The translations under genes were made by a program, and so were the position numbers. Shown piece by piece: positions 954 to 54,425 of a DNA stretch of 64,000 nt; the stretch's first letter is position 1; every line of letters begins with the position of its first letter. The notes under the pieces were generated by a model. It worked only from the letters and a program-made list of their open reading frames with translations, ran no database searches and had not been told where the DNA came from. Origin of the DNA: Elusimicrobiota bacterium (lineage in GTDB: Bacteria > Elusimicrobiota > UBA8919); NCBI GenBank assembly GCA_040757695.1, contig JBFLWK010000001.1:89758-153757 (forward strand), given 5' to 3'.

Positions 954-1209
954 CCCGCAGAAACCGCAGAATACCCGCAGATTACGCAGAGATTTTTATC
1001 TCTTTCTGCGGACTCTGCGGCTTTTCTGCGTAATCAGCGGACAATACTACAGCGAACACAGAGATTTATTTCTTTTTCAATTTAAGAAACTGTATTACAA
1101 CCAAACTGTCTAATGAAACCAATCCGCATAGTACTGCTGCATCAAAAGGCGTATTTATCACCTTAACCAAGTGTAAAACCAGAAACAAAATCGTTCCCAT
1201 TAGTTTTTT

Positions 1210-4529: not shown

Positions 4530-4581
4530 CCTTTTTTATTAAGTTCTTTAATTTAACCACGAAAACACGAAAACACGAAAT

Positions 4582-4630
4582 TTCTACGAAACTTTAGTTT
4601 CGGTTATACCGCCACTAAAGTGGCGTAGAA
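4582..4630. repeat. Double-hairpin intergenic element TTCTACGAAACTTTAGTTTCGGTTATACCGCCACTAAAGTGGCGTAGAA (family copy 1), preceded by (ACGAAAAC)×3
   Basis: Outer stem TTCTACG/CGTAGAA; inner hairpins CGAAAC-TTTA-GTTTCG and GCCAC-TAAA-GTGGC. Confidence 0.7.
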
Positions 4631-4697
4631 AGTAGCCTTACTGATATCAATTCTATCTTTCTGTGATTCTGTACTTCAGTGGTAAATACTTTTATCG

Positions 4698-6899: not shown

Positions 6900-7514
6900 T
6901 TAAAGCCGAAGGTTGTGGAAACGGTAGTAAAGGCAAGGTGATAAGGTGATAAGGTGATAAGGTGATAAGTAAAAACAAGGAAGTAAAACAACAAAACCTA
7001 AAAGAAGCAAGAATAGTTTTTCAAAAAATTTCTTTAAAACCGTAAATATAACTGCTAAATCTGCAATCTGCAATCTGCAATCTGCAATCTTCAAATAGTG
7101 TTTAGCCACTGTGAATAACTTCTGGAGCAAATTCACAACCAGGATTTGTGAATGAACCGGTGTATTGAATGTCAGTGTGATGAGTGAACTCAAAAAAAGC
7201 GTCCGAAGTCCGAGGCCGGGGATTCGAGACCTGTCATTCTGAGCCGAAGGCGAAGAATCTTGTGTGTTAACACCAGGATTCTTCACTTCGCTGACGCTCC
7301 GTTCAGAATGACAACCTTCTACTCGCAACTCGCTACTCGCTACTTGCTGGTTTTGGGTATCTCTTTCATCCAGACCGCTGTCCCAATTCTTGATTGCCTG
7401 TTTTACTTCATTAGGGCAATTGGGATTGATAGTATTTGCAAAACAAAAAGCACTCGCTAACCCTATTAAGAAAGCGGCAGAAACTATAATAATAATAATT
7501 TCTCGTTTTGACAT
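6900..7514 (-). CDS. Hypothetical small secreted/membrane protein. Only the N-terminal ~60-100 aa look genuine; the 3' part of the ORF runs through SSRs and an inverted-repeat element.
   Basis: N-terminus MSKREIIIIIVSAAFLIGLASAFCFANTINPNCPNEV looks like a signal/TM segment followed by a Cys-containing mature region. The downstream part of the ORF spans the palindromic element at ~7232-7313 and (aatctgc)n / (ggtgataa)n repeats, so the true stop is doubtful. Confidence 0.25.
   Translation of the reverse strand: MSKREIIIIIVSAAFLIGLASAFCFANTINPNCPNEVKQAIKNWDSGLDERDTQNQQVASSELRVEGCHSERSVSEVKNPGVNTQDSSPSAQNDRSRIPGLGLRTLFLSSLITLTFNTPVHSQILVVNLLQKLFTVAKHYLKIADCRLQIADLAVIFTVLKKFFEKLFLLLLGFVVLLPCFYLSPYHLITLSPCLYYRFHNLRL
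7057..7093. repeat. 5× AATCTGC heptanucleotide repeat, with 3× GGTGATAA octamer repeat at 6948-6971, in the 5' region ~150-290 nt upstream of the GT2 gene at 5776-6804
   Basis: ctgcaatctgcaatctgcaatctgcaatct; ggtgataaggtgataaggtgataagg. Confidence 0.8.
7232..7313. repeat. Large imperfect inverted repeat: TGTCATTCTGAGCCGAAGGCGAAGAATC ... GATTCTTCACTTCGCTGACGCTCCGTTCAGAATGACA
   Basis: The two arms share the termini TGTCATTCTGA and GAAGAATC in opposite orientation. A related element is at 40419-40495. Confidence 0.6.
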
Positions 7515-10462: not shown

Positions 10463-11341
10463 TCATTCAATATATTTCTGTAAAGCAATTGCAAGTTTTT
10501 TAGAAAGCGTGTTTTCTTCGGTATTTAACAAAACTGCCAGATTTTTTTTAGCTTCTGCGATATTATTCTTTTTTAGATAAGTTAGTGCAACTAAAAAATG
10601 CGCATTCACCGCTGTAAAGTTAGAAATTGCGATATCTGGATTTTTTTTCATATTAATATATCCTTCTAAAATTCGGGAATCAAACGATGTAGTAAAAAAT
10701 GGTTCTGATTCAGCATATTTACCAGTTAAAACATTCAACTGTAAAATACTGTTTTTTATACTATCGGTTGGACATAGTGCCAGCGCCCTTTTGTATAAAT
10801 CAATAGCTTCGTTATCTCGCCCGGTATTTTTATAAATAACCGCAAGCCCGTTTAATGCTTCAATACTGCTGTTATCAAGTTGCAGTACTTTTTTATAGTA
10901 TTCTTCTGCCTTTTCGTATAGCAATTTTTTATAATAAACCGCACCCAGCCCGAGATAAATCCGTATATCTTTTGAGCCGTATTTTAATGCTTTATTATAT
11001 TCAAAAATCGCTTCATTATGCATATCAGCACCGCGATATGCCTCCCCTAATTTTAGAAGGACAACCGGGTTTTTTTTCTTAATTTTTTTGGCATCAGTAT
11101 AAAATGTAATTGCATAACTGTACTCGCCACGCATTAAATACTCATCACCTTTAGAGATATAGAATCTAATTTTTTCTTTTTTTGATTCTGCATATAAAAA
11201 GATGGAAAGATAGAAAGATAGAAAGATGGAAAGATAGAGAGATGGAAAGATAGAAAGATGGAAAGATAGAAAGGAAAATCTATTGCCCAACCACCTAGCC
11301 ATCTTACCATCTATCCATCTATTAGAATAGTATTTTTTCAT
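10463..11341 (-). CDS. TPR-repeat protein with a repeat-encoded hydrophobic N-terminus
   Basis: Several TPR-like segments (AITFYTDAKKI..., LYEKAEEYYKKVLQLD...). The N-terminal FSFLSFHLSIFPSLYLSIFLSFYLSIFLY is encoded by 8-nt tandem repeats (agatRgaa)n at ~11199-11275. Confidence 0.5.
   Translation of the reverse strand: MKKYYSNRWIDGKMARWLGNRFSFLSFHLSIFPSLYLSIFLSFYLSIFLYAESKKEKIRFYISKGDEYLMRGEYSYAITFYTDAKKIKKKNPVVLLKLGEAYRGADMHNEAIFEYNKALKYGSKDIRIYLGLGAVYYKKLLYEKAEEYYKKVLQLDNSSIEALNGLAVIYKNTGRDNEAIDLYKRALALCPTDSIKNSILQLNVLTGKYAESEPFFTTSFDSRILEGYINMKKNPDIAISNFTAVNAHFLVALTYLKKNNIAEAKKNLAVLLNTEENTLSKKLAIALQKYIE
11199..11275. repeat. Tandem octanucleotide repeats (AGATAGAA/AGATGGAA, ~9 units) inside the 5' coding end of the TPR gene
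   Basis: Read directly from the sequence. The unit length is not a multiple of 3 and gives an 8-aa periodic hydrophobic peptide. Confidence 0.8.
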
Positions 11342-12294
11342 TTTAGAAATACTATTTTATCAATAAACTTTTCAAGTATTTTATCTTTGATAGCATTCGC
11401 CTTACTTCTTGTGGCAACAAGCCCTGCCTCTATACATTCTGCTGACCTGTCAAGTTCTATCATACTCACATTTTTTATATTCGGTATTATTACAAAATCG
11501 GCATTTTTTATCTGATTAGATACCAGGAATCCAGCTTGAATATTTATCGCCTGAATGAGTGTTTTCATAACATTATCTATATTAAATAATGAATAATCTA
11601 CCTGTGGCCAGACAGCAATTACAAAATCGGCAGCCATTACTTTTGCGATATCAATCGGTAGATTATCAACCAACCCGCCGTCTACAAGCAGCCGATGTCG
11701 GTATTCAACCGGCTTAAAGAGACCCGGGATTATTGCAGAAGCACGCATTGCAAATGCTGCCTCGCCTTCCTTAAAAACGATTCGTTCACCAGTTTTTATA
11801 TCACAGGCGATACAGGCAAACGAAATTTTTAACTCGTCAAACCTTTTTTGCCTGATATGTTTTTCCAGATATTTTTCAAGTTTTTCTGTGCTTAACAGCG
11901 ATTCCGCAGTAATAAGTGTTAGCAGTTTAGTTGCTGAAAGATTTGATATTTTATTCCAGCCAATATCAGTCCCTATCCGTTCTATATCAGTTATCGCCAT
12001 ACCTGTCGCATAGAGCCCGCCAACAAGCGCACCGGCACTGGTACCAACAATAATATCAGTCGGTATATTATTTTCTTGAAGCACCTTTAAGACGCCGATA
12101 TGACTCAGACCTCGTGCGCCGCCACCACCTAATACTACCGCGATTTTAGGCCGCTTAGAGTTCAATGCTAAAAAATCTTTCCATAATAAATCTCTTAATA
12201 AATTATCAGATTGAGCATAAAGGCAGGTAAAAGGTAAAAGGTAAAAGGTAAAAAGTAAAAGGTAAAATCTCAAACTGCGAAGAACAGGATACAT
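11338..12294 (-). CDS. Patatin-like phospholipase
   Basis: GGGARG oxyanion motif, GTSAGA (GxSxG nucleophile elbow), DGGLVDN (catalytic Asp). The signal peptide RFYLLLFTFYLLPFTCLYAQ is encoded by heptamer repeats. Confidence 0.8.
   Translation of the reverse strand: MYPVLRSLRFYLLLFTFYLLPFTCLYAQSDNLLRDLLWKDFLALNSKRPKIAVVLGGGGARGLSHIGVLKVLQENNIPTDIIVGTSAGALVGGLYATGMAITDIERIGTDIGWNKISNLSATKLLTLITAESLLSTEKLEKYLEKHIRQKRFDELKISFACIACDIKTGERIVFKEGEAAFAMRASAIIPGLFKPVEYRHRLLVDGGLVDNLPIDIAKVMAADFVIAVWPQVDYSLFNIDNVMKTLIQAINIQAGFLVSNQIKNADFVIIPNIKNVSMIELDRSAECIEAGLVATRSKANAIKDKILEKFIDKIVFLK
12226..12268. repeat. 6× GGTAAAA heptanucleotide tandem repeat (coding strand TTTTACC) encoding FYLLPFT in the signal peptide of the patatin gene
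   Basis: ggtaaaaggtaaaaggtaaaaggtaaaaagtaaaaggtaaaa. The 7-nt unit is in frame only in multiples of three units. Confidence 0.85.
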
Positions 12295-12297
12295 TTT

Positions 12298-13593
12298 TTA
12301 TTCAATAATTTTGCCGATACTGGTTTCTAAATTGATTTTTGCGATTATAACATCTTTCAATGCATCAATATATTCAAGTTGGATATTCATCGCTGTCTCT
12401 AACATTTCAATAAACTCAAGATATGTAAGTTCTTTTAATACCTCATCTGTTACAGTTGTAGCAAGTTGTTCTTTTTCGTTAGTTTTTTGTTCAAACTTTT
12501 TAACTGCAAACTCGTAATCAACAAAACATTTTCTTACCTCGGCCTGGATTGAGTCGGTAATACTTGCTCGGTTAATCTGTGTTTTTCTATATTGGTACTT
12601 TTTTTGTTTTATTCGGGCAAACTGACCAAAACCATCAAATATCGGTAGTGTAAAATTTATAGTTGCATTCCACGCTCTTTTTTCAAATGGCAACTGTCTA
12701 TCTTCAAGTTGATAGTTGCCACCGAGTGTAATTATAGGATACCTGCCGGATAATGATAGGTTTACTGAAAGCGCATCCATCTGTTCCTGAAGTTGCGTTT
12801 TTTTAAGTTCAGGCCGATATTCAAGCGCCCAGGCAATGCATTTATTGAGGTCTACCACAGCCTTTTTGTGCTCTAACTCGCCTTTGATTGTGAATATCGT
12901 ATTTAACTCTATCCCGATAGAATCAAGAAAATCAATTTCTGCCAGTTCCAGTTCTTTCTGGTTTTTGGTTTCTGCTGATTTTATTTTTTCAATTTTTTTT
13001 TCAGATATAAATCTGTCTTTAGGGTTTAAAGACTCATTTTTTCTATTTGATATTTTTTCAATAGTTGCTTTATAAATCTCAACTTTTTTCTGGATTGATA
13101 GAAGTGTATAGAAATTTTTTTTAGCCGATGAGCCTGTTTTGTTTTTGATTACCTCGTAATCACTTTCAGCCGATTTCAATTCTGTTTCTGCAAACTTCTT
13201 TGTAGCAGAAATTTTGGCACCACTCCATAATATCTGATAGAGCGAAATTTTGGCTGTATAATAATCTTCAATGTTATCAACCAGTGGCTCAATTTTTTGT
13301 GGCAGGATAGTGTTGCCCAAAATAGGCGAAATCAACAGCGGGCTTTCGGCTTTGAATTTGGAATAGTTGGCGTTGAACTCCAATTGCGGATACATTATTG
13401 ACCGCGCTTCTTTCAGCCGTTGTCTGGCAATCTCTATATCCTGTCGGGCGGATAGAAGTTGCTGGTTGTTTGAAATCGCAAGATTAACACTATCGTCAAC
13501 TGTTAAAACTCTTTCTACAAGTTGCTGGGAATAGAGACAGGTAAAAGGTAAAAGGTAAAAGGTAAAAGGTAAAAGGTAAAAAAATTTTTTCAT
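12298..13593 (-). CDS. TolC-like outer membrane efflux protein (OEP family)
   Basis: Signal peptide, then a TolC-type N-terminus LTVDDSVNLAISNNQQLLSARQDIEIARQRLKEARSIMYPQLEFNANYSK; two-repeat coiled-coil architecture; 431 aa. Confidence 0.65.
   Translation of the reverse strand: MKKFFYLLPFTFYLLPFTCLYSQQLVERVLTVDDSVNLAISNNQQLLSARQDIEIARQRLKEARSIMYPQLEFNANYSKFKAESPLLISPILGNTILPQKIEPLVDNIEDYYTAKISLYQILWSGAKISATKKFAETELKSAESDYEVIKNKTGSSAKKNFYTLLSIQKKVEIYKATIEKISNRKNESLNPKDRFISEKKIEKIKSAETKNQKELELAEIDFLDSIGIELNTIFTIKGELEHKKAVVDLNKCIAWALEYRPELKKTQLQEQMDALSVNLSLSGRYPIITLGGNYQLEDRQLPFEKRAWNATINFTLPIFDGFGQFARIKQKKYQYRKTQINRASITDSIQAEVRKCFVDYEFAVKKFEQKTNEKEQLATTVTDEVLKELTYLEFIEMLETAMNIQLEYIDALKDVIIAKINLETSIGKIIE
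13540..13581. repeat. 6× GGTAAAA heptanucleotide repeat encoding FYLLPFTFYLLPFT in the TolC-like signal peptide
   Basis: Near-identical ~50-nt cassette (acag + 6 units + aaaaattttttCAT) to those at 12226 and 20440. Confidence 0.85.
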
Positions 13594-18352: not shown

Positions 18353-20493
18353 TATTTCTCAGGCAGATTAAATAAATCAATTTTTAGGTTCTGGTTAAAA
18401 TACAACTTTTTAAGCAACAAGTTAGTTTTTACATTAAGCGTGGGATTACTAAAATCAAGCCGATGCGGAAAAATTATTCTGCCGGCTGGTTTATAGTCGG
18501 CAAATTGTATCACAGAACCGTTGTCAAACTCCAGTTCGGTAATTGTATGCGATTTCTTGTCAATTTTTAAGTTGACAGTACTATTTTTAAAACTATAAAG
18601 ATTTTTTTCTTCATTCACAAAATTCAGTTCATCAAAACATTCGGTATCAAAAATCTTGAAAATATCTCTAACCCAGCAAAAGTCGCTAGTTAAGTCATAC
18701 ATTGTTTGAGATGGTGTAATATACACGATTGTCCCCTGTCGTAATAGAATAAGCCCTTGCGGGACTGAAAACAGCCCTAAAATTTCTACTCTGAGTTGTT
18801 TAGGTTTCTTGAAGAAAAACGGGCCATTGATACTGTAGGATTTGTTTTTATAGTTAGTTGTGGCTTTTACAAAGCCGGCAATATCTTGCAGGTTTTTGAA
18901 ACATTTTAACGCACGATTTTTTACCATTTCCGACGACCATTCCAGATTTTTTTTATATTTTCTTATTTTGTTTTCTATCAGTTTATTTCTTTCTAACTCT
19001 AATAACAATGCGGTTTCCCAGTTGTCAACCGCATTCTGAACATCGCCAACAGATAAGTAGCAATCGCCGAGATGGTCAAAAATTATAGGGTCATCCAATT
19101 TCTCAGATGCTTTTTTTAACAATTTTAATGCCTCGTCATATTCTGCCCGACGATAATACACCCAGCCAAGCGAATCAATATATGCGGGATTTTCAGGTTC
19201 TAACTCTAACGCTTGTTTAATAAACTGTTCTGCTTCTACAAGTTTTACATTCTTATCCGCCCAGGTATAGCCAAGATAATTATACGCCTGCGAAGTGGTT
19301 GTATCTATTTCTATAACCTTAAAAAACGATTGCTCTGCCAAAGCCCATTTTTTCAGTTTATCATAAACCACACCGAGTTCAAAATGATATTTAGCATTTT
19401 GTGGCTCCATTTTGAGTGCTTTGTTAAGATATTTTTCTGCTTTCTTGTAGTTATTCAGAACCTCGTAATTCATCGCCAGAAAAAAATATACATCCGGATT
19501 TTCAGAACCTAACCTGATTGCTTGTTCAAACGATTTTACTGCCTGTTTGGTATTTTCTAAAATTGTAAAAATATAGCCCTTCTGTATGTATGGTTCAGGC
19601 AATTTTTTGTTTAGATGAATTGAATGGTCAAAATATTTTAGTGCCTCATCATATTTTTTTTCATCAAGCGCAATCAAGCCAAGATAGTAATCAACCCAGT
19701 GATTTGTTGGAATAGTTTCTTTTATTTTTAACAGATATTTTTTAGCAGTTAATAAATCCTTATTAAGAATTGAAAGCCCGGCAATTTTTAGCATAGGTTC
19801 GGTATCTTCAGGAAAGATATTAAGTAATTTCTCGTATAATTCAATTGCTTTTTTGTAGTCCTTTTTTTCTTCGTAAATCCCAGCAAGCGCAACCAATGGA
19901 ACAATAGAATTGGAGTCCATCTCATATGCTTTTTTAAGATACGATTCGGCTTCAACGGGCTTATTAAGTTTGTGATACAGAATTCCGATACTTACATAGA
20001 TTTCTGGTGATTCCGGCTGTAACTGAAGATATTTTTCAAAATATGTAATTGCTTTTTCGTAATTTTTAATTTCAGCATATAGAACAGCCAGGTTATAAAG
20101 TGCTTTTTCATTTGCTGGTTCTGTTGACAAAATTTTTTCATATGCAGAGATAGCATCTTCAGGTTTTTTTTGATAAACCGATATTTCGGCAATAAGTTCA
20201 GTTGTTAATTTATCTTCAGGCTGCTGTCTGGCTATTTCAGAAATCAGTTCAGATGCGGAGTTTATATCGCCTGTTAGAAAATAGAGGCTCAGCAGTTGTT
20301 TTTTGAGATATATTGAAGCAGAATCATACACTGCAGATTTTTTATACTCGTCTATCGCTTTTTTAGAATCACCCATCAGTTCTGCGATATTGCCTAAAAT
20401 ATAATGATAGTATGCATCGGATTGGGCAGAATGAAGACAGGTAAAAGGTAAAAGGTAAAAGGTAAAAGGTAAAAGGTAAAAATACTTTTTCAT
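18352..20493 (-). CDS. TPR-repeat secreted protein with a C-terminal LolA-like/lipoprotein-sorting-like domain
   Basis: At least ten TPR units (AISAYEKILSTEP..., AITYFEKYLQLQP..., etc.). Signal peptide MKKYFYLLPFTFYLLPFTCLHSAQ encoded by heptamer repeats. C-terminal domain assignment is low-confidence. Confidence 0.6.
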   Translation of the reverse strand: MKKYFYLLPFTFYLLPFTCLHSAQSDAYYHYILGNIAELMGDSKKAIDEYKKSAVYDSASIYLKKQLLSLYFLTGDINSASELISEIARQQPEDKLTTELIAEISVYQKKPEDAISAYEKILSTEPANEKALYNLAVLYAEIKNYEKAITYFEKYLQLQPESPEIYVSIGILYHKLNKPVEAESYLKKAYEMDSNSIVPLVALAGIYEEKKDYKKAIELYEKLLNIFPEDTEPMLKIAGLSILNKDLLTAKKYLLKIKETIPTNHWVDYYLGLIALDEKKYDEALKYFDHSIHLNKKLPEPYIQKGYIFTILENTKQAVKSFEQAIRLGSENPDVYFFLAMNYEVLNNYKKAEKYLNKALKMEPQNAKYHFELGVVYDKLKKWALAEQSFFKVIEIDTTTSQAYNYLGYTWADKNVKLVEAEQFIKQALELEPENPAYIDSLGWVYYRRAEYDEALKLLKKASEKLDDPIIFDHLGDCYLSVGDVQNAVDNWETALLLELERNKLIENKIRKYKKNLEWSSEMVKNRALKCFKNLQDIAGFVKATTNYKNKSYSINGPFFFKKPKQLRVEILGLFSVPQGLILLRQGTIVYITPSQTMYDLTSDFCWVRDIFKIFDTECFDELNFVNEEKNLYSFKNSTVNLKIDKKSHTITELEFDNGSVIQFADYKPAGRIIFPHRLDFSNPTLNVKTNLLLKKLYFNQNLKIDLFNLPEK
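20440..20481. repeat. 6× GGTAAAA heptanucleotide repeat in the signal-peptide codons of the TPR gene
   Basis: aggtaaaaggtaaaaggtaaaaggtaaaaggtaaaaa; same cassette as at 12226 and 13540. Confidence 0.85.
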
Positions 20494-30561: not shown

Positions 30562-30631
30562 ACACCCTCCAAATTAATGGCAAATTTTAAATTCTAAATT
30601 CTAAATTTAATATAAGTTTGGTTACACTTCC

Positions 30632-42306: not shown

Positions 42307-42612
42307 TTATTCCAGCATATAATCTTCAAACGGGATTTTTTTCTTTCTTAAATCCTCTTTCCACTTTTCTTTAGCTTGTGGCATTTTTTGTTTTGACATT
42401 TTTACCCATTTTGAGTTGGGCGGTGAAAATTGTTCAACTGCAGTTTGATACCACACATATGCCATCTTCCAGTCGTTATTTGCGGCTGCTTTTTCTGCTT
42501 CTTGGTAAGAATGTCTTGCACGAAACCAGACATCAAGATATATCATAACATACATTACAACTACTGTTAAAATTACTGTAACCGCAGTTCTAACCCATTT
42601 TTTGTTAAACAT
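42307..42612 (-). CDS. Small membrane-anchored protein
   Basis: 101 aa, one N-terminal TM helix, charged C-terminus. Confidence 0.25.
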   Translation of the reverse strand: MFNKKWVRTAVTVILTVVVMYVMIYLDVWFRARHSYQEAEKAAANNDWKMAYVWYQTAVEQFSPPNSKWVKMSKQKMPQAKEKWKEDLRKKKIPFEDYMLE

Positions 42613-43015
42613 TGTTCCTCCTTTCGGTTTCTAAAACTTTTTTTATGTCTAAAACAAGGTTCGCTATATCTATCGGCTTGGAGTAAAAACCTTTTACATT
42701 CGGCTGCGACTTTAAGAACTCGTAGGTTGTTCCGTCGGTAAATTTACCGGTAATAATCATAACCGGTATTTCTTTTGTAGTTTCGTTTTGCTGAAGATTC
42801 TTTAGCACCTGAAATCCACCCTGCTTGGGCAACATCAAATCAAGAATTATTATATCGGGCTTGAGATTTTCAACTTTCAGTAGCGCTTCTGTTCCATCGT
42901 AAGCAACAAAAACAGTAAGGTTTTCTCTTGAAAGAATATGCTTGAACAGTTCTACAATATTTTCATCATCATCAACAACAAGTACTTTTTTGCTTACCAA
43001 ATTTTTTAACTGCAT
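42605..43015 (-). CDS. Single-domain response regulator (CheY-like receiver)
   Basis: KVLVVDDDENIVELF...DIIILDLMLPKQGG...KPIDI; phospho-acceptor Asp in LDLMLP. Confidence 0.8.
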   Translation of the reverse strand: MQLKNLVSKKVLVVDDDENIVELFKHILSRENLTVFVAYDGTEALLKVENLKPDIIILDLMLPKQGGFQVLKNLQQNETTKEIPVMIITGKFTDGTTYEFLKSQPNVKGFYSKPIDIANLVLDIKKVLETERRNNV

Positions 43016-43022
43016 CTATGTA

Positions 43023-43706
43023 TTACCTTACGATTTTGGTTTTTACATTACCAATAATAGAAACTGTTTCTTTGTCAACTGCAAGCACGATTTTGTCACC
43101 GGAGTACTCTGAAACACCATCGGCATCAGTTCTGACTATTTTTGGTGGACCGCCTAAAAGTAAAATTTCGTTTGTTTTATGGTCGTAAAATGCTTCCTTA
43201 CTGAATGCTTCTGTTTCCGATTGAGAAATTTTAACATTTTGGATTGCATGGAACCGGTCGCCGAACTCAAAAATCTCTAATTCTTCACATTTTAATTCAA
43301 TAACATCTGTTGTGTTCTGGCTTAATGTTCTTTTTACTTTTACATTCTTTTTCAAAATACCCTGTCCGTTATTTTTGTTATATTCTGCTTCATCACCCCA
43401 GGAATATGTAACGGATGTGCCACTGGAATAACAGATATAGATATTTCCGGTGCCTGAAATCACACTTGTTTTTTCGTTTGATTTCATTTTATCCGCAGAG
43501 ATTGTAAGGTTCTGCTGTGTAAATTTTACATTCCCAATAAATTCAAGAATCTCGCCTTTAGATAGTATCTTCATCTGGTCACCGGTGATTGTTGCCTGTT
43601 CACCAGCATAGAGGCAGTAAATAAGTGAATAAGTGAGTAAGTGAATAAGTGAAAGACACATAACCACATAACCACTTAACCACTCAACCACTTTATTTAT
43701 CTTCAT
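43023..43706 (-). CDS. LptA/OstA-like periplasmic LPS-transport protein
   Basis: Beta-jellyroll OstA-type repeats (ITGDQMKILSKGEILEFIGNVKFTQQNLTISADKM...); adjacent to lptC-like; signal peptide encoded by octamer repeats. Confidence 0.5.
   Translation of the reverse strand: MKINKVVEWLSGYVVMCLSLIHLLTYSLIYCLYAGEQATITGDQMKILSKGEILEFIGNVKFTQQNLTISADKMKSNEKTSVISGTGNIYICYSSGTSVTYSWGDEAEYNKNNGQGILKKNVKVKRTLSQNTTDVIELKCEELEIFEFGDRFHAIQNVKISQSETEAFSKEAFYDHKTNEILLLGGPPKIVRTDADGVSEYSGDKIVLAVDKETVSIIGNVKTKIVR
43621..43692. repeat. Two blocks of 8-nt tandem repeats (AAGTGAAT ×4; CATAACCA ×4) encoding the signal peptide of the LptA-like gene
   Basis: ataagtgaataagtgagtaagtgaataagtgaaagacacataaccacataaccacttaaccactcaaccac. 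Confidence 0.8.
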
Positions 43707-44344
43707 TTTTTTATTACTTTGACATTTTTTAAAATTGTTATATCTGATAGGTCAGCATTCGCTTCTAAACCGATACCTGTAATCGTCACATCCTGTTTTT
43801 CCTGACGGATAGGGCTATCAGATAAGACCTTGCCAGTTTTTTCAGAATAGTTTATTGATTCTGTAAAAATTGTTGTCGCTCTTGATAACGAAAAAATTAC
43901 AACATTCCCGGAAGCCTGAATATCGCCTGTTTTTGTCTGCATTCCCGCATTATCCGCTGTGATGATAGACGATATTTTTTTATTGTTTTCGTAAAAAGTC
44001 ATTTTTATTTTTTTTGTATTGATACTATTTCTTTTTTCGTATATATCACCTCTATCAGCGACAAAATTCCATTTTTGGTTTTCAAGTTCATATTTATCTA
44101 TTGAAAAATTTTTTACAACCTGGTCAGGAAACGAATCGTTTATAACAATTTTTTCAACTTTTCTACTACACGAAAATTGCATAACCACAGTGACAGCGAG
44201 CCACAGCGAAAAAAATACGTCAACAAGATAACCTGAACAGGTTCGGGACCCCAGAACTGAAATTCTACGACACTTCAGTGTCGGTTCTGATTCAGTTTTT
44301 ATTTTTGTGTATCTGTGGTATAATACTTTATAACTTTGCCCCAT
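43703..44344 (-). CDS. LptC-like membrane-anchored LPS export protein
   Basis: N-terminal TM, then an LptC-type beta-jellyroll segment (…FYENNKKISSIITADNAGMQTKTGDIQASGNVVIFS…); position upstream of lptA-like and next to kdsC. Confidence 0.5.
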   Translation of the reverse strand: MGQSYKVLYHRYTKIKTESEPTLKCRRISVLGSRTCSGYLVDVFFSLWLAVTVVMQFSCSRKVEKIVINDSFPDQVVKNFSIDKYELENQKWNFVADRGDIYEKRNSINTKKIKMTFYENNKKISSIITADNAGMQTKTGDIQASGNVVIFSLSRATTIFTESINYSEKTGKVLSDSPIRQEKQDVTITGIGLEANADLSDITILKNVKVIKK

Positions 44345-44850
44345 ATGCCCTGTGCCTGAAAAATCAGTTCAACAACCTCTCTGAAAACACCCTTGCCACT
44401 TTCAGCATTTGTTACATAATCAACCCGGCTTTTTACTTCCGGTGGCGCATTTTCAGGACATGCAGAAAAACCAGATTGTAAAATTACAGATAAGTCAACC
44501 AAATCATCGCCGATAAACGCAATTTCATCTATTGTTAGATTTTCTTTTTTTAATATCTCGTTTATTGCTGAAATTTTATCCATACATTTCTGATACAGAT
44601 AATGAATACCGACCTCTTTTGCCCTGTTTTCAACCTGCTGTGTTTGCCGACCTGTAATCCAGGCGAGTTTGATATTTTTAGCAAATTTTTTTAATAGCGT
44701 AAATGCAAACCTGTCGTATGTATCCCAGAATTTTATCTCTTCACCGTTGTTTAATATAATGATTTTGCCGTCAGTTAAAACACCATCTACATCTGTAGCA
44801 ATCAATTTTATTTTTTTTGCTTTATTTAGAATTGCTTTTTTAATTTTCAT
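44299..44850 (-). CDS. kdsC: 3-deoxy-D-manno-octulosonate-8-phosphate phosphatase
   Basis: HAD motif I IATDVDGVLTDG; FIGDDLVDL (motif IV); 183 aa. Confidence 0.85.
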   Translation of the reverse strand: MKIKKAILNKAKKIKLIATDVDGVLTDGKIIILNNGEEIKFWDTYDRFAFTLLKKFAKNIKLAWITGRQTQQVENRAKEVGIHYLYQKCMDKISAINEILKKENLTIDEIAFIGDDLVDLSVILQSGFSACPENAPPEVKSRVDYVTNAESGKGVFREVVELIFQAQGIWGKVIKYYTTDTQK

Positions 44851-47236: not shown

Positions 47237-47980
47237 TCAAATTATTTCAATATATTTTTTTTCTACCCAGCCACGAACACCGAGTGATTTTACGCCTATC
47301 TCTAACCACTCGCCCCCCTCGCCTGATGTTCCTAACAGTATCACCTTTTTACCTTCCGGCACGGTAAAGTTAACCTTGAAATTAGTATCAGGTCCTGACC
47401 TAACCTCAGCGGTATTGATAACAACTGCTTCCTGCCGGGCTTGTTGACGGTATTTTATCAAATAGAGTGCTGAAAAGAAACCAAAAAATAAAACTGATAC
47501 AACAACCAGCCAAAACATTTTTTTAAACGGATAAACAAATTTTATAGAAATAACAACTACAAAACTAAACAACGAAATCGCAAATAATAATCTTAACCTG
47601 TTTATATTAAACCTTGAAATCAGTGATTGCTCGTAATCCGGGTCTTTTATCAGTTGTGCAATAAACTTTATGTTATAATTAACATCGTCATCCGCTGGCG
47701 AAATTTTTCTTGCTTTTTCATAATAGACCATTGCTAAACCAATTCTACCCAGTCGGAAATAGGTGTTGCCAAGATTATAAAAAAGGTTTGTAGACGGATA
47801 CGATTTTTCAATTATTAAAAACTGTTCAAGTGCTTTTTCATAGTTGCTCTTTTTGTAAAACTCGCAGCCGGTAGAAAAAATTTCAGTTTCTGAAACAGCA
47901 TAGAGGTGATTGCAGATTGCAGATTGCAGATTGCAGATTAAAAACAACAAAAAAATTTGTAATTTTTTCATATTTCCCAT
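47237..47980 (-). CDS. batE: BatE-like TPR + bacterial SH3 domain protein
   Basis: TPR units; C-terminal SH3b (VINTAEVRSGPDTNFKV...GEWLEI...RGWVEKKYIE); signal peptide encoded by (GATTGCA)n. Confidence 0.55.
   Translation of the reverse strand: MGNMKKLQIFLLFLICNLQSAICNHLYAVSETEIFSTGCEFYKKSNYEKALEQFLIIEKSYPSTNLFYNLGNTYFRLGRIGLAMVYYEKARKISPADDDVNYNIKFIAQLIKDPDYEQSLISRFNINRLRLLFAISLFSFVVVISIKFVYPFKKMFWLVVVSVLFFGFFSALYLIKYRQQARQEAVVINTAEVRSGPDTNFKVNFTVPEGKKVILLGTSGEGGEWLEIGVKSLGVRGWVEKKYIEII
47907..47940. repeat. 4.5× GATTGCA heptanucleotide repeat (coding strand CTGCAAT) encoding LQSAICNLQSAICN in the batE-like signal peptide
   Basis: tgattgcagattgcagattgcagattgcagatta. The same unit (aatctgc) is repeated at 7057-7093. 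Confidence 0.85.
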
Positions 47981-49812
47981 TCTTTTTCAATCTCGGAAAT
48001 AATACTTTTTATTTTTTTTATCTCGGTTGCCAAATTAACATTTTTGTCTACCGAGGGTGCAAATCTCATAAAATCAGCATTTTCAAGTAGTTCTCTAATT
48101 TTTTTTATAGCCGTTACAGCAAGATTTTTTTGTGCTAATACATTTTCAATCTCGCTAAAAGTAAAGCCTGACAGATTACTACTCGTTTTATCAGAAAGAT
48201 ATTCTACGACTGAATCAAATACAGTCCCGTAAAATTCTTTAACATCAATAGTATGTTTAATTTTATTTATGTTTTTTTCAAACTTTTTAAAAGCCTTTTT
48301 ACTTCTAATAAACTCGTAATTTTTAGAAACAAAAAATCTGTATCTGTTATATCCTAATCTACCAAAAAAAACCAACACCGAACAAACAAGCAATACATCT
48401 GCGATAATTTTTTCAGATTTCCAACTGATATTTTTGTCCAATTCAGTTTTTATAAACCTTATATCCTGACCGACAATATTGATACCGGAAGCAATCACAG
48501 GCAGGGTTGGGACTGCTGATATTTTAGACGGTAAAACTTTCAGATTAACTACTGGTGTTTTTAGTTTCTGGTATTCTTTTTTTTCAGGATTAAAATACGA
48601 AAAAACAACCTCCGGGATTATCAGATTACCAGCCCGGTCGGGAACGAGTACTGTCTTAAACACTTTAGAGCCGGTAACTTTATAGTTGGCTTTTGATATA
48701 TTAACTGACGAAATCGTATCATATTTTCTTACACCGATAATACTGGGAAATTGCGGCTCCGGAATTGATTTTATATTACCTTCACCTGAAATTGTAACAG
48801 TTAGCGTCACAGGATTGTTTGCTTCTATTTCTTTTTTGTCAACAGAAGCGCTGATATTATAAGCGCCTACAGCACCTGAAAAATCGGCTGGTTTATTTTC
48901 AGTCGGCAATGGTAGAACCTCAACAGATAGCGGTTTTGACTGAACAACGACAGATTTGCCACCACCAAAAAACCCTCTAAAAAAATCATCATCAAAAAAA
49001 CCGCTAAACGGGTCTCGTGTAAAATCCTGAACACTCGCTTTTAAGGACGCCGAGCCAAGCGCATATTTTCCGCTGGTAGTTGGGAACAATTTTGTTTTTA
49101 TCTCAATAACATTGTATCTTTTACCGTTAATAATTGTTTGATAATTTCGTTGTGGTGGTAAATCTTCAACAATAAAACCGGTGAAATTAGGCGGATTATA
49201 TTCCGGATTTGAAAACAGATTTCGTGAAGTAAAAAATCTGAATGTATAGGTTATTCCTTCATTAACAAAACATTTTCTTTTGTCCAATTCGGCTGTTACA
49301 AAAAGTCCTTGTGCTTTTTCATCATCAAGTTTGAATTGTTGAGTATCAACAGGTTTCTGCGATTGTCCGCTTAACACTTCAATATTTATTGGGTTAGTTG
49401 TATAATCTTTTCCACTGACGGTCAATTTTACAGGTCCGATTGCGAATTTCCCAGCACGATTCGGTGAGAGGATAAAATTATATGTTATAGATGCCGATAC
49501 TCTGCCATTAACAAACGAGATATTTTGTGAAGTGCCTGATGAATAAACATTAAAATCGGCTAACGGCGGAAGTTCAGGTTTAGGGATATTTGCAACATCG
49601 CCGGCGACGGTGACCTGCAGAGTAATTGATTCGCCGAAATTAACCGTGTTTCTGTCAACAGTTGCCTGGATATTTATATCCGCATAAAGGCAAGACAGAA
49701 GTAAGAAGCAAGAAGTAAGAAGTAAGAAGACAGAAGACAGATGAAAGATGACAGATGAAAGACTCTGACTTCTGACTTCTGACCTCTGATTTCTGACTTC
49801 TGATTTTTTCAT
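47968..49812 (-). CDS. batD: BatD-like oxygen-tolerance protein (signal peptide, large periplasmic region, C-terminal TM helix)
   Basis: Size and architecture, plus its position in the batA-E operon; N-terminus built from heptamer repeats. Confidence 0.6.
   Translation of the reverse strand: MKKSEVRNQRSEVRSQSLSSVIFHLSSVFLLLTSCFLLLSCLYADINIQATVDRNTVNFGESITLQVTVAGDVANIPKPELPPLADFNVYSSGTSQNISFVNGRVSASITYNFILSPNRAGKFAIGPVKLTVSGKDYTTNPINIEVLSGQSQKPVDTQQFKLDDEKAQGLFVTAELDKRKCFVNEGITYTFRFFTSRNLFSNPEYNPPNFTGFIVEDLPPQRNYQTIINGKRYNVIEIKTKLFPTTSGKYALGSASLKASVQDFTRDPFSGFFDDDFFRGFFGGGKSVVVQSKPLSVEVLPLPTENKPADFSGAVGAYNISASVDKKEIEANNPVTLTVTISGEGNIKSIPEPQFPSIIGVRKYDTISSVNISKANYKVTGSKVFKTVLVPDRAGNLIIPEVVFSYFNPEKKEYQKLKTPVVNLKVLPSKISAVPTLPVIASGINIVGQDIRFIKTELDKNISWKSEKIIADVLLVCSVLVFFGRLGYNRYRFFVSKNYEFIRSKKAFKKFEKNINKIKHTIDVKEFYGTVFDSVVEYLSDKTSSNLSGFTFSEIENVLAQKNLAVTAIKKIRELLENADFMRFAPSVDKNVNLATEIKKIKSIISEIEKEWEI
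49693..49810. repeat. ~118 nt of consecutive heptanucleotide repeat blocks (GAAGTAA/GAAGACA/GATGAAA/TCTGACT types) encoding the first ~40 residues of the BatD-like protein
   Basis: gaagtaagaagcaagaagtaagaagtaagaagacagaagacagatgaaagatgacagatgaaagactctgacttctgacttctgacctctgatttctgacttctg. The protein shows matching 7-aa periodicity (SEVRNQRSEVRSQS; LLLTSCFLLLSC). Confidence 0.8.
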
Positions 49813-52507: not shown

Positions 52508-52518
52508 AATTTTTAAAC

Positions 52519-52555
52519 CCTAAACTCTAAACTCTAAACTCTAAACTCTAAACTC
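52519..52555. repeat. 5× TAAACTC heptanucleotide repeat spanning the stop codon of the DUF4381-like gene, ~25 nt upstream of the batA start
   Basis: ctaaactctaaactctaaactctaaactctaaactccc. On the coding strand this is (GAGTTTA)n, encoding ...SLEFRV with stop TAG inside the repeat. Confidence 0.8.
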
Positions 52556-53478: not shown

Positions 53479-54368
53479 CTGTGTAATCTGCGTTCTCGCA
53501 TCTTAAAAAAATTTATCAACGGCAAAATGTATGCCTTATCAGTATAGAGGTTTAATTTATCAATCCCCATATTTTTAGATAGTTTTTCAAGGTATTCCAA
53601 GTTTTTATTTTTTGTTTCAGAAAATTTTTTCAGCAAAAAATAATCTTTTGCATCTACATAGATATCAGTGTTTGTTTCAGCATCTACAAAATGAAAAATC
53701 CCAAAGTTCGGGATTTCGTATTCCATCTGGTCACTAATATTTACAAGTATCAAATCATGTTTTTTAGATGTAACTTTTAATAGTTTATCATAACCAACAT
53801 CTAAAAAATCAGACAATAGAAAAACAACTGCCCGCTTTTTAATCACCCTGTTTAAGTAATCCAGTGCATTATAAATATCCGTTTGTGCTTTTGCTTCTTG
53901 TGAGAGAACTTCGCTGACAATTCTTAAACAATGAATTTTACCTTTCTTAGGCGGAATAAATTTTTCTATTTTATCCGAAAAAAATATAACACCTATTCTA
54001 TCATTGTTCTGTAGTGCAGAAAAACCGAGAATCCCGCATAACTCCGCAATCAGGTCAATTTTTGACTTTTTAGAACCAAACTTTTGAGAACCAGAAATAT
54101 CAATAAGCAACATTATCGTAAGTTCGCGTTCTTCAATAAACTTCTTTACAAAAAGTGAAGCATATCGTGCAGAAACATTCCAGTCAATTGTCTTTATGTC
54201 GTCACCAGCTTGATATTCACGAACTTCAGAGAATTCCATCCCTCTGCCTTTGAATACACTTTTATACTCACCAGCAAAAATCTCATTAACAAATTTTCCT
54301 GTTGTGATTTCTATTTTTCTTATTTTTTTTATTAACTCACCAGTCAACATATTATTACTTCTACGCAA
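53475..54368 (-). CDS. DUF58 family protein (VWA-like, MoxR partner)
   Basis: DDIKTIDWNVSARY...LLIDISGSQKFGS, the characteristic DUF58 segment. Confidence 0.7.
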   Translation of the reverse strand: MRRSNNMLTGELIKKIRKIEITTGKFVNEIFAGEYKSVFKGRGMEFSEVREYQAGDDIKTIDWNVSARYASLFVKKFIEERELTIMLLIDISGSQKFGSKKSKIDLIAELCGILGFSALQNNDRIGVIFFSDKIEKFIPPKKGKIHCLRIVSEVLSQEAKAQTDIYNALDYLNRVIKKRAVVFLLSDFLDVGYDKLLKVTSKKHDLILVNISDQMEYEIPNFGIFHFVDAETNTDIYVDAKDYFLLKKFSETKNKNLEYLEKLSKNMGIDKLNLYTDKAYILPLINFFKMRERRLHR

Positions 54369-54417
54369 CTTTAGTTGCGGTTGAAACCGTTATACCGACG
54401 CTAAAGCGTTGTAGAAG
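54359..54417. repeat. Double-hairpin intergenic element TTCTACGCAACTTTAGTTGCGG...CGACGCTAAAGCGTTGTAGAA (family copy 3)
   Basis: Both internal hairpins are retained through compensatory changes relative to copy 1: cgaaac/gtttcg becomes gcaac/gttgc, and gccac/gtggc becomes acgc/gcgt. Confidence 0.7.
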
Positions 54418-54425
54418 TCATTATT

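What the first reader, a model, noticed from the sequence alone, without database searches (positions are those of the whole stretch)
43621..43692. LptA-like gene signal peptide built from two 8-nt repeat blocks
(AAGTGAAT)4 and (CATAACCA)4 together encode WLSGYVVMCLSLIHLLTYSLIYCLY. An LPS-transport component would be an unusual target for repeat-mediated switching, so it is worth checking whether this is really variable.
Basis: seen in the sequence. Interest (0 to 1): 0.5.

Follow-up and report, generated by a model that had tools for sequence, protein, structure and literature searches.

The report
Repeat-built, swappable LptA export signal
The export signal of an LPS-transport protein in an uncultured Elusimicrobiota bacterium is written in two mutually complementary 8-base tandem repeats; it is one of many such repeat-built export signals in this lineage, which are exchanged as whole cassettes, and nothing shows it acting as an on/off switch.

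Summary
Window 43616-43653 and 43657-43693 are two imperfect 8-nt arrays. On the coding (-) strand they read (GTGGTTAN)x4.6 then (CACTTAYT)x4.8 and encode residues 5-31 of a 227-aa LptA homologue that follows kdsC and lptC.

The switching interpretation is not supported:
- Neither block has more than two identical adjacent units.
- The interruptions remove an in-frame TAA.
- The only length difference seen between alleles is exactly three units (24 nt).
- No out-of-frame allele was found, although read-level data were not available.

The feature is not specific to lptA. In this 64-kb window, 7- and 8-nt arrays are the only tandem-repeat periods present (14 arrays; 0 expected). They build the N-terminal leaders of seven ordinary exported proteins. 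LptA orthologues carry at least five unrelated array-built leader types.

In most two-block leaders the upstream, purine-richer array is an imperfect reverse complement of the downstream, pyrimidine-rich array.

Leaders are replaced as cassettes:
- Two loci are 92-100% identical except for the roughly 120 nt around the leader.
- One leader is 75/76 nt identical between lptA of another genome and a TPR/SH3 gene here, against 68-75% for orthologous genes.

Best reading: a Sec-type leader made and remodelled by 7-8-nt slippage and recombination. How the arrays originate is inferred, not shown.

The parts
43023..43706 (-). lptA homologue, 227 aa
   Evidence: ORF. Pfam LptD_N/LptA PF03968 over residues 39-139. 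PDB LptA 7zax aligns from residue 40. The AF2 model has a helix at 3-33 and a beta-jellyroll at 39-226, pLDDT 87.6. The protein is 100% identical to an NCBI MAG protein annotated Elusimicrobiota LptA/OstA.
43605..43706 (-). Leader (signal-peptide) module, residues 1-34: MKINK + block 1 + block 2 + CLYA
   Evidence: This segment lies wholly upstream of the conserved mature start (E/G)(P/Q)ATITGD. It is predicted as a single helix. Its ATG overlaps the lptC stop as ATGA. The mRNA strand folds into a -31 kcal/mol periodic hairpin, z = -2.84.
43657..43693 (-). Block 1: (GTGGTTAN) x4.6, residues 5-17 (KVVEWLSGYVVMC)
   Evidence: TRF and codon table. The consensus unit GTGGTTAA has a stop in one of its three reading frames. 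Here the third unit reads TAT instead.
43616..43653 (-). Block 2: (CACTTAYT) x4.8, residues 18-31 (LSLIHLLTYSLIYC), the hydrophobic core
   Evidence: TRF and codon table. The unit is stop-free, uncharged and hydrophobic in all three frames (HLFTYSLI, mean Kyte-Doolittle 1.1). It pairs with block 1 at -27.3 kcal/mol, against a mean of -17.5 for non-cognate arrays.
43606..43616 (-). c-region motif TGCCTCTATGC (Cys-Leu-Tyr-Ala), the putative signal-peptidase I site, directly abutting the array
   Evidence: The pattern TGYCTYYATKC occurs 5 times in the window, each time directly 3' of an N-terminal array. The pattern was derived from these sites, so this is descriptive. CLYAG is shared by most LptA orthologue leaders.
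43703..44344 (-). lptC, upstream gene of the operon
   Evidence: Pfam LptC, E 1.9e-19.
44299..44850 (-). kdsC-like HAD phosphatase
   Evidence: Pfam Hydrolase_3. The same synteny is seen in all relatives.
11194..11321 (-). Same class: two-block 8-nt leader of a TPR protein (10463..11341)
   Evidence: Arrays of 10 and 4.1 copies. Leader MKKYYSNRWIDGKMARWLGNRFSFLSFHLSIF...FLYA. Hairpin z = -4.17.
12225..12267 (-). Same class: (TTTACCT)6 leader of a patatin-like phospholipase
13539..13581 (-). Same class: (TTTACCT)6 leader of a TolC-like outer-membrane efflux protein
20439..20481 (-). Same class: (TTTACCT)6 leader of a 713-aa TPR protein
47900..47971 (-). Same class: (TGCAATC)4.6 leader of a TPR/SH3 protein; the same cassette as the lptA leader of another genome (L148)
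   Evidence: Identity is 75/76 nt apart from a 21-nt indel, against 68-75% for orthologous genes.
49692..49803 (-). Same class: two-block 7-nt leader of BatD
   Evidence: Hairpin z = -3.70.

Best explanation
Window 43605-43706 (- strand) is the N-terminal Sec-type leader of LptA. It consists of a short basic start (MKINK), a hydrophobic core and a C-L-Y-A end. The folded beta-jellyroll begins just after that end.

Its DNA is two octamer arrays. The upstream, purine-richer array is an imperfect reverse complement of the downstream, pyrimidine-rich array. A 7- or 8-nt unit is read in all three frames. A pyrimidine-rich unit that lacks stops therefore yields a hydrophobic peptide, and its complement yields a more polar one. 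An inverted pair of arrays placed after an ATG gives the polar-then-hydrophobic layout of a signal peptide.

This leader belongs to a class found across the genome and the clade. These Elusimicrobiota, like other genomes rich in heptanucleotide repeats, generate 7-8-nt tandem arrays. Inside genes only frame-preserving three-unit changes survive, and mostly in leaders.

Steps shown here:
- The anatomy of the leader and its position before the folded domain.
- The existence of the class in this window and in relatives.
- Three-unit length steps between alleles.
- Complementarity of the two arms.
- Replacement of leaders as discrete cassettes between close relatives and between non-homologous genes.

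Steps inferred:
- Slippage and template-switching as the origin of the arrays.
- Cleavage after Ala34.
- Absence of adaptive ON/OFF switching.
For: Anatomy:
- Arrays and codons are documented.
- The domain starts at about residue 39.
- The AF2 model has a helix at 3-33 followed by a beta-jellyroll.
- The conserved mature start lies right after CLYA in 25 orthologues.

The class:
- Only periods 7 and 8 are present, against 0 expected. The same holds in relatives' loci.
- Seven of about 11-12 signal-peptide-like N-termini in the window are array-coded. They belong to TPR proteins, patatin, a TolC-like protein, BatD, a TPR/SH3 protein and LptA.
- The h-region units all fall in the 8-10% of 7/8-mers that are stop-free, uncharged and hydrophobic in three frames.
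- LptA orthologues carry at least five unrelated array leaders: CACTTATT, CTTTACA, CTTACTCA/ACCACTT, GACATTG and CTTATTA.

Frame constraint:
- L002 and L020 differ by exactly three GTGGTTAA units.
- L148 and the window's TPR/SH3 leader differ by exactly three TACAAAT units.
- The stop-creating unit is mutated in both type-A alleles.

Complementary arms:
- Hairpin z-scores run from -2.8 to -5.0 in six loci. There is no such signal in single-block or non-array leaders.
- Cognate arms rank first or second of 8 in 7 of the 8 loci compared.

Cassette replacement:
- P0014 and P0036 are 97% identical in the mature part but have unrelated leaders.
- Their loci are 92-100% identical except from -33 to +90.
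- The L148 lptA leader equals the window's TPR/SH3 leader at 75/76 nt, against a 68-75% background.
- Three window genes share one leader.

Stability:
- The P0003 allele is carried identically by 24 contigs from at least 10 samples. This look-up is by exact protein sequence, so identity is by construction and the count is not an independent test of stability.
- Its 90% cluster holds no frameshifted member.
- The flank-anchored metagenome scan found only in-frame lengths.

Literature: heptanucleotide repeats are the dominant long-SSR class in some prokaryotic genomes, with polymerase slippage proposed as the cause (Mrazek 2007, as summarised in PMC4679880).
Against: - No read-level data were available, so low-frequency +/-1-unit variants cannot be excluded.
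- The exact-sequence look-ups cannot show variants by construction.
- The window's own population is represented by one assembly plus an identical Logan contig.
- By my count, arrays run at about 5-6 per kb in leader-coding DNA, about 1 per kb in intergenic DNA and about 0.1 per kb in other coding DNA. Simple tolerance does not explain the excess over intergenic DNA.
- The leader DNA is more conserved between the window and L002 (82.5%) than any 100-nt stretch of the mature part (at most 74%). This suggests constraint or transfer, not free drift.
- Cleavage is not verified. The hydrophobic stretch is about 20 residues long and could be a membrane anchor.
- The reason for the 7-8-nt preference is unknown.
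- The type-A leader was not found on any other protein family.
Confidence: 0.7

Rival explanations
1. Contingency locus. Slipped-strand mispairing changes the number of 8-nt units, shifts the frame and switches LptA ON and OFF, as in opa-type leader repeats.
For: The unit length is not a multiple of three, and the arrays lie in the 5' coding region inside the leader. Copy number has changed between lineages. Other leaders in the window carry perfect arrays of 4.6-6.1 copies that should slip readily.
Against: - At most two identical adjacent units occur in either block.
- The interruptions specifically keep the frame open.
- The only differences observed are three units, in frame.
- No out-of-frame allele appears in the P0003 cluster or in the scan.
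- The genes carrying arrays are housekeeping exported proteins, not surface antigens.
- No lptA paralogue exists in the window.
- LptA is essential in model Gram-negatives (established knowledge).
Confidence: 0.1
2. The hairpin formed by the two arrays is a selected mRNA element. It would control initiation or translational coupling of lptA to lptC, or slow early elongation to help targeting.
For: - A -31 kcal/mol stem starts about 9 nt after the AUG, which overlaps the lptC stop.
- Three unrelated lptA leader types (A, B, D) all fold, with z from -4.0 to -5.0.
- The sense strand folds better than the antisense strand in 4 of 7 loci.
Against: - The strand asymmetry is inconsistent. It is equal in two loci, and in L148 it is reversed (-23 sense versus -44 antisense).
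- Single-block leaders, type C leaders and the L012 BatD leader have no hairpin.
- L020 has lost three of the four block-1 units without apparent harm.
- There is no Rfam match and no terminator-like call at the site.
Confidence: 0.15
3. The leaders are spread by a dedicated mechanism, such as a small mobile or self-copying array hairpin, and not by ordinary slippage plus homologous recombination.
For: - Near-identical cassettes with sharp edges sit on non-homologous genes in genomes that are only about 70% identical.
- One leader sits on three genes within 8 kb.
- A B/C leader dimorphism exists in a 92-100% identical background.
- (TTTACCT)n arrays occur in many phyla. An inverted partner lies upstream in 21 of 121 cases and downstream in none.
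Against: - No transposase, integrase or reverse transcriptase is found in the 64-kb window.
- Cassette edges show no terminal repeats or target duplications.
- Exchange between orthologues needs only homologous recombination in conserved flanks, and the loci are visibly mosaic.
- Each leader type has a different unit, unlike a transposable family.
Confidence: 0.2
4. Block 1 is not translated. The real start would be the in-frame ATG at codon 16 (43661), and the upstream array would be a spacer or 5' element.
For: An in-frame ATG (M16) precedes the hydrophobic core. Gene callers disagree about starts in relatives, for example P0018 at 268 aa.
Against: - M1 overlaps the lptC stop (ATGA) and gives the usual basic MK..K start, which M16 lacks.
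- The frame stays open through block 1 only because of the TAA-removing substitutions, in two independent alleles.
- The block-1 length differs by exactly three units.
Confidence: 0.1

Closest known systems
Neisseria opa (CTCTT)n and Helicobacter pylori oipA (CT)n repeats in the signal-peptide-coding region (phase variation by slipped-strand mispairing; oipA: PMC10564699; opa from general knowledge)
   Same: A short repeat whose unit is not a multiple of three lies inside the leader-coding 5' end of an exported protein's gene. The repeat itself encodes the hydrophobic leader residues.
   Different: Those arrays are long and perfect, vary within populations including out-of-frame states, and sit on dispensable surface proteins. 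Here the arrays are short and interrupted, only in-frame differences are seen, and the genes are housekeeping. There are also two mutually complementary arrays instead of one.
E. coli K1 neuO heptanucleotide 5' repeats (general knowledge; phase-variable NeuO is mentioned in PMC13001214)
   Same: A 7-nt unit in the 5' coding region. The protein is full-length only when the copy number keeps the frame, so functional alleles differ by three units (7 residues).
   Different: neuO carries many perfect copies and is a demonstrated switch on a phage-borne accessory gene. It is not a signal peptide and has no inverted partner array.
Heptanucleotide-rich long simple sequence repeats of some prokaryotic genomes (Mrazek et al. 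2007, as summarised in PMC4679880), TAACTGA direct repeats of Beggiatoaceae, cyanobacteria and Bacteroidetes (PMC4679880), and cyanobacterial STRR heptamers
   Same: There is a genome-wide excess of tandem arrays with about 7-nt units, often just upstream of start codons, with a scattered multi-phylum distribution. Polymerase slippage has been proposed as the cause. The window also has such intergenic arrays (52514, 30582, 14916).
   Different: Those repeats are described as mainly intergenic, and coding ones were expected to have units that are multiples of three. Here 7/8-nt arrays are concentrated inside coding leaders, come as inverted pairs, and are exchanged as leader cassettes. None of this is described in the papers I could search.
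Borg tandem repeats (PMC9879509)
   Same: Lineage-specific, fast-evolving perfect tandem repeats that arise independently in many genes and create new peptide segments.
   Different: Borg repeats inside genes have unit lengths divisible by three and create disordered regions. Here units are 7-8 nt, are read in three frames, and build hydrophobic leaders.
REP/REPIN extragenic palindromes (PMC3116915)
   Same: Short hairpin-forming repeated DNA that is spread within a genome.
   Different: REPINs are one conserved sequence family mobilised by a RAYT transposase, and they are extragenic. Here each hairpin has its own unit and is translated, and no RAYT is seen in the window.

Membership tests
LptA/OstA family (periplasmic LPS-transport bridge) | OstA/LptD_N beta-jellyroll domain | tested here: met
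   Pfam PF03968, 44.6 bits against a cut-off of 20.4. PDB LptA 7zax, E 0.003. The AF2 model shows 16 strands at 39-226, pLDDT 87.6.
LptA/OstA family (periplasmic LPS-transport bridge) | Operon context kdsC-lptC-lptA-lptB | tested here: inconclusive
   kdsC and lptC precede the gene. In the window lptA is followed by a response regulator, not lptB, whereas all relatives have lptB there.
Sec / signal peptidase I signal peptide | Basic n-region, hydrophobic h-region, small residue at -1 and a permitted residue at -3, located before the folded domain | tested here: met
   K2 and K5. Maximum 12-residue Kyte-Doolittle mean of 2.3 at residues 14-25. L-Y-A(34) precedes the conserved mature start. Helix at 3-33 outside the domain. 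No dedicated predictor was available.
Sec / signal peptidase I signal peptide | Actual export and cleavage | not testable with these tools
   This needs a reporter fusion or N-terminal proteomics. The roughly 20-residue hydrophobic stretch could also be an uncleaved anchor.
SSR contingency (phase-variable) locus | Unit not a multiple of 3, located in the 5' coding region | tested here: met
   8-nt units at codons 5-31.
SSR contingency (phase-variable) locus | Long uninterrupted array (high slippage rate) | tested here: not met
   At most two identical adjacent units in each block. TRF match 89-90%.
SSR contingency (phase-variable) locus | Copy-number polymorphism, including out-of-frame alleles, among close relatives or within a population | tested here: inconclusive
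   Only an in-frame 3-unit difference was seen. No frameshifted member appears in the 90% clusters, except two 159-aa members on short contigs that are probably contig-edge calls. The scan found lengths 66 and 42 only. There were no reads and few independent assemblies.
SSR contingency (phase-variable) locus | Dispensable, usually surface-exposed or modifying gene product | tested here: not met
   LptA, TolC-like, BatD, TPR and patatin proteins. No paralogue in the window. Essentiality is inferred from model organisms.
Heptanucleotide-class long simple sequence repeats (Mrazek 2007; PMC4679880) | Genome-wide statistical excess of tandem arrays with 5-11-nt units, dominated by 7 nt | tested here: met
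   Ten period-7 and 4 period-8 arrays against 0 expected, and no other period. The same holds in six relatives' loci.
REP/REPIN-type mobile palindromes | One conserved sequence family in many copies, extragenic, with an associated RAYT transposase | tested here: not met
   Units differ between leaders. The arrays are translated. No transposase domain appears among the window ORFs scanned.

The most novel reading that the evidence does not exclude
Inverted pairs of 7-8-nt arrays act as a generator and exchangeable cassette for secretion signals. The purine-rich arm supplies the polar or basic n-region, and its pyrimidine-rich complement supplies the hydrophobic core. Whole leaders are created, expanded in three-unit steps, and copied between unrelated genes and between genomes. 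The process would be specific to lineages rich in heptamer repeats and possibly driven by a dedicated replication or recombination activity. It would be a previously undescribed route for the origin and turnover of signal peptides.
Probability: 0.3. Interest if true: 0.85.

Novelty: new variant of a known kind. Interest (0 to 1): 0.6.

Why it matters
Signal peptides are usually thought to drift by point mutation under loose constraints. Here most of the export signals in a genomic region are written in 7-8-nt tandem arrays, which is the repeat class least expected inside genes. They are remodelled in three-unit steps and swapped as cassettes, even between unrelated genes.

If this holds genome-wide, it has four consequences:
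- It gives a concrete mutational route by which a protein can gain or replace a secretion signal.
- It links the unexplained heptanucleotide-repeat richness of scattered bacterial lineages to a protein-level outcome.
- It warns annotators that such repeats at 5' ends are coding and are not automatically phase-variation switches.
- For LPS transport specifically, it removes the suggestion that LptA is phase-variable in this organism.

Tried and rejected
- **Relatives in the species-representative genomes.** The search with the LptA protein found none.
- **Apparent length variation of lptB after lptA in L002-L011.** This proved to be gene-caller start differences on identical DNA.
- **Searching proteins with the leader alone.** A 40-aa query found no candidates in the word index. 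A 34-aa phmmer search against 1.84 billion representatives gave one irrelevant internal hit. I therefore have no evidence that the type-A leader sits on other protein families.
- **Known RNA families and terminators.** Rfam found no family in the window. There is no terminator-like or promoter-like call at the leader.
- **Strict DNA inverted-repeat search.** It does not report the lptA arms, because the pairing relies on G-U pairs and periodic mismatches.
- **Selection for an mRNA hairpin.** The sense/antisense comparison is inconsistent across loci, so I do not claim an RNA function.
- **Lipoprotein reading of the conserved Cys in CLYA.** Rejected, because the residues before the Cys (Y, T, S, N, H, L) do not fit a lipobox.
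- **Loss of mismatch repair as the cause.** A close relative's locus carries mutL. The idea was not pursued further.
- **Chance or low complexity.** Rejected by the simulations.
- **Assembly difference between the NCBI contig and the Logan contig.** None; they are 100% identical over 11,264 nt.
- **The two truncated cluster members (P0032, P0033).** They could be leader frameshifts or contig-edge calls.
Full report
**1. The observation**

The + strand at 43616-43693 carries two adjacent period-8 arrays: AGTGAATA x4.8 (90% match) and CACTTAAC-type x4.6 (89%). The only long ORF there is on the - strand, 43023..43706, 227 aa.

On the coding strand the sequence reads ATG AAG ATA AAT AAA, then GTGGTTGA GTGGTTAA GTGGTTAT GTGGTTAT, a 9-nt spacer, then CACTTATT CACTTACT CACTTATT CACTTATT TAC, then TGC CTC TAT GCT.

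The arrays are imperfect. No more than two identical units are adjacent. They are far from chance. At >=85% self-match over 28 nt the window holds 10 arrays of period 7 and 4 of period 8, and none of any other period from 4 to 12. One hundred Markov simulations gave none at all. Exact arrays of >=3 copies have periods 7 and 8 only.

**2. The gene**

- The protein hits Pfam LptD_N/LptA over residues 39-139. The two upstream genes are LptC and a KdsC-like phosphatase.
- PDB LptA (7zax) aligns from residue 40.
- An AlphaFold model built on 25 homologues (pLDDT 87.6) has one helix at 3-33 and a beta-jellyroll at 39-226.
- The protein is identical to an NCBI MAG protein annotated as Elusimicrobiota LptA/OstA, on a 155-kb contig. 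A Logan contig from SRR29635779 is 100% identical over 11,264 nt.
- The nearest orthologues are only about 65% identical.
- No second LptA-like ORF exists in the window.
- Unlike all relatives, the window has a response regulator after lptA instead of lptB.

The arrays therefore encode the whole leader: a basic start MKINK, a hydrophobic core and C-L-Y-A. This ends just before the conserved mature start (E/G)(P/Q)ATITGD.

**3. It is not an lptA peculiarity**

All genes of the window lie on the - strand. 7/8-nt arrays sit at the 5' ends of seven of them:

- a TPR protein (two 8-nt blocks, 11194-11321);
- a patatin-like lipase, a TolC-like efflux protein and a 713-aa TPR protein, all three with (TTTACCT)6 encoding FYLLPFTFYLLPFTC;
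- LptA;
- a TPR/SH3 protein, (TGCAATC)4.6;
- BatD (two 7-nt blocks, 49692-49803).

That is seven of about 11-12 N-termini that look like cleavable signal peptides. Each ends in (C)L(Y/H)(A/S) directly after the array. These are ordinary exported housekeeping proteins.

By my count, arrays run at roughly 5-6 per kb in leader-coding DNA, about 1 per kb in intergenic DNA and about 0.1 per kb in the rest of the coding DNA.

The hydrophobic-core units (CACTTATT, TTTACCT, CTTTCTAT, CTTCTTA) all belong to the 8-10% of possible 7/8-mers that are stop-free, uncharged and hydrophobic in all three reading frames. Intergenic arrays (GAGTTTA, AATTTAG, AATGAAA) carry stops.

Relatives show the same period spectrum. 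LptA orthologues carry array-built leaders with different units:

| Type | Block 1 / block 2 units |
|---|---|
| A | GTGGTTAA / CACTTATT |
| B | GTGTAAG / CTTTACA |
| C | CGCAGAAC... / CTTACTCA or ACCACTT |
| D | AGTCCGA / GACATTG |
| E | CTTATTA |

A more distant orthologue (L018) has an ordinary, non-repeat leader.

**4. The two blocks are complementary**

The mRNA strand of the lptA leader folds into a long periodic stem in which block 1 pairs with block 2 (-31 kcal/mol, z = -2.84). The same holds for:

- the TPR leader (z = -4.17) and the BatD leader (z = -3.70);
- lptA leaders of type A in L002 (-4.97), type B in L015 (-4.65) and type D in L016 (-4.04).

Single-block leaders, type C leaders, the L012 BatD leader and non-array leaders show no such signal.

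Cognate block 1 x block 2 duplexes rank first or second of eight against non-cognate combinations in 7 of the 8 loci compared. The exception is L013, a type-C leader whose arms do not pair.

The arms are imperfect complements. A perfect complement of CACTTATT would contain UGA and UAA. The observed block 1 differs from it at positions that remove stops. This last point is an inference.

Whether the stem matters as RNA is doubtful. The sense strand folds better than the antisense strand in four loci, equally in two, and much worse in L148. I therefore read the complementarity mainly as a signature of how the arrays arise, by inverted copying plus slippage. An inverted pair conveniently encodes a polar segment followed by a hydrophobic one.

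**5. Is it variable?**

Between lineages it is, but not as a switch.

- L002 and L020 have identical flanks and differ by exactly three GTGGTTAA units (24 nt).
- The L148 lptA leader and the window's TPR/SH3 leader differ by exactly three TACAAAT units (21 nt).
- A perfect (GTGGTTAA)n puts TAA in frame at the third unit. The window has TAT there and L002 has CAA.
- The P0003 allele is carried by 24 contigs from at least 10 samples. The look-up is by identity, so this cannot reveal variants.
- Its 90% cluster contains only one further full-length member (one substitution) and a fragment.
- A flank-anchored scan of JGI metagenomes that would have accepted any length from 42 to 72 nt found only 66 (twice) and 42 (once).
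- Two 159-aa cluster members that start at an internal Met sit on 1.1-1.4-kb contigs. They are probably edge calls, and I could not check them.

Read-level data were not available.

**6. Leaders are replaced as cassettes**

Within clusters whose mature parts are 92-97% identical, the leaders are unrelated: P0014 (type B) versus P0036 (type C), and P0004, P0028 and P0029 (types A, D, E). Conversely, the same leader type sits on mature parts only 66-86% identical.

At the DNA level:

- The P0014 and P0036 loci are 92-100% identical through lptC and lptA, except from about -33 to +90 around the leader. There identity falls to 27-50%.
- L146 and L015 (both type B) are 90-98% identical from -470 to +330 and about 75% identical beyond. 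These lineages are therefore recombination mosaics.
- The window's leader is 82.5% identical to L002's. The mature part is 67.8% identical, and no 100-nt stretch exceeds 74%.
- The lptA leader of HGW-Elusimicrobia-4 (L148) and the leader of the window's TPR/SH3 gene are 75/76 nt identical from the ATG to the end of the array, apart from the 21-nt indel, with sharp edges. Orthologous genes of the two genomes are 68-75% identical.
- Within the window, three unrelated genes share one leader.

The leader is thus a discrete, exchangeable module. Exchange between orthologues needs only homologous recombination in conserved flanks. Exchange between unrelated genes needs something else, such as microhomology-based conversion or an unknown mechanism, and that remains open.

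**7. Wider context**

The hits span Acidobacteriota, cyanobacteria, Bacteroidota, Methylococcales, Kiritimatiellota and other groups. Several are N-terminal leaders of long ORFs, for example MKIYKYLLPFTFYLLPLILFSQ and MKKPLFLLPFTFYLLPFALCLATFAQ. One has KVKVKRQKVKVE, an AGGTAAA array, before FYLLPFTF.

Of 121 arrays, 21 have an inverted AGGTAAA partner within 80 nt upstream and none have one downstream.

The literature I could search describes:

- heptanucleotide repeats as the dominant long-SSR class in some prokaryotes, with polymerase slippage proposed as the cause;
- TAACTGA repeats upstream of start codons in Beggiatoaceae, cyanobacteria and Bacteroidetes (PMC4679880);
- leader-located repeats as phase-variation switches (for example PMC10564699).

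I found nothing on array-built or cassette-exchanged signal peptides, or on Elusimicrobia in this respect.

**8. Verdict**

The claim of a repeat-mediated switch on LptA is not supported, although it is not excluded at the read level.

What is there is a Sec-type leader built from two complementary octamer arrays. It belongs to a clade-wide class of repeat-built leaders that change in three-unit steps and are swapped as cassettes.

I file it as a new variant of known kinds: heptanucleotide-class SSRs and leader-located coding repeats. The more novel reading is a generator and exchange system for secretion signals. It remains possible and is worth a whole-genome census.

Noticed in passing
window 47900-47971 (-) and L148:6354-6446: The leader of the window's TPR/SH3 gene and the lptA leader of HGW-Elusimicrobia-4 are 75/76 nt identical apart from a 3-unit (21-nt) indel. 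Orthologous genes of the two genomes are 68-75% identical. The same export-signal cassette therefore sits on unrelated genes in different genomes.
   Followed up: yes
window 12225-12267, 13539-13581, 20439-20481: Three unrelated genes within 8 kb (patatin-like, TolC-like, TPR) share the same (TTTACCT)6 array, the same copy number and the same TGYCTYYAT continuation. There is no similarity further upstream or downstream.
   Followed up: partly
L026-L145 (species-representative genomes of many phyla): (TTTACCT)n arrays are widespread in Acidobacteriota, cyanobacteria, Bacteroidota (several loci in Algivirga pacifica), Methylococcales and other groups. When an inverted AGGTAAA partner exists it is always upstream (21 of 121 against 0 of 121). 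Some arrays are N-terminal leaders of long ORFs.
   Followed up: partly
window 52514-52555, 30582-30607, 14916-14939: Intergenic heptamer arrays of similar units (GAGTTTA, GAATTTA, GAATTTG) end 7-20 nt before start codons. All contain stop codons in the gene's orientation. They resemble the start-codon-proximal heptamer repeats described in Beggiatoaceae.
   Followed up: no
window 61524-61557, 27528-27559, 62260-62292, 6935-7348: 7/8-nt arrays also occur inside genes: LpxK (a 5-residue insertion relative to PDB 4ehw), ThiL (no length change relative to 1vqv), a family-2 glycosyltransferase, and three arrays in the unannotated ORF 6900..7514.
   Followed up: partly
window 952-1040; L002 8560-8680; leaders of L013 and L022: A hairpin whose arms are tandem CGCAGAA-type units (ACCCGCAGAAA... 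/ ...TTTCTGCGG). The same kind of element lies in the lptA-lptB spacer of L002. One arm of it forms the basic n-region (RIAEQTQNRRR) of type-C lptA leaders.
   Followed up: no
window 4581-4631 and 54351-54424: Two similar intergenic palindromes (...CTACG.AACTTTAGT..CGGT / ACCG..CTAAAG...CGTAGAA) containing GTAG/CTAC, reminiscent of REP elements. No RAYT-like gene is present in the window.
   Followed up: no
window 27304, 27330, 37267, 58030, 58047 (+ strand): The 14-mer CGAACATTTGTTCG occurs five times, always on the + strand (0.03 expected). Twice it appears as tandem pairs inside perfect 26-nt and 17-nt duplications.
   Followed up: no
window 17123-18352 (-): A stand-alone 409-aa ORF matches only the N-terminal third of DNA polymerase III alpha (PHP domain and start of the palm; 2hpi residues 7-313). 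The 736 nt downstream cannot hold the rest. Any link to the repeat-prone replication of this lineage is pure speculation.
   Followed up: partly
window 42605-43015 (-): lptA is followed by a response-regulator receiver gene and a small membrane-protein ORF instead of lptB. lptB follows lptA in every related locus fetched.
   Followed up: no
L146, L147, L015, L022 (lptC-lptA): Related groundwater Elusimicrobiota are recombination mosaics. lptC plus the first about 330 nt of lptA are 90-98% identical across four loci. The 3' two-thirds of lptA comes in two versions about 75% identical to each other.
   Followed up: partly
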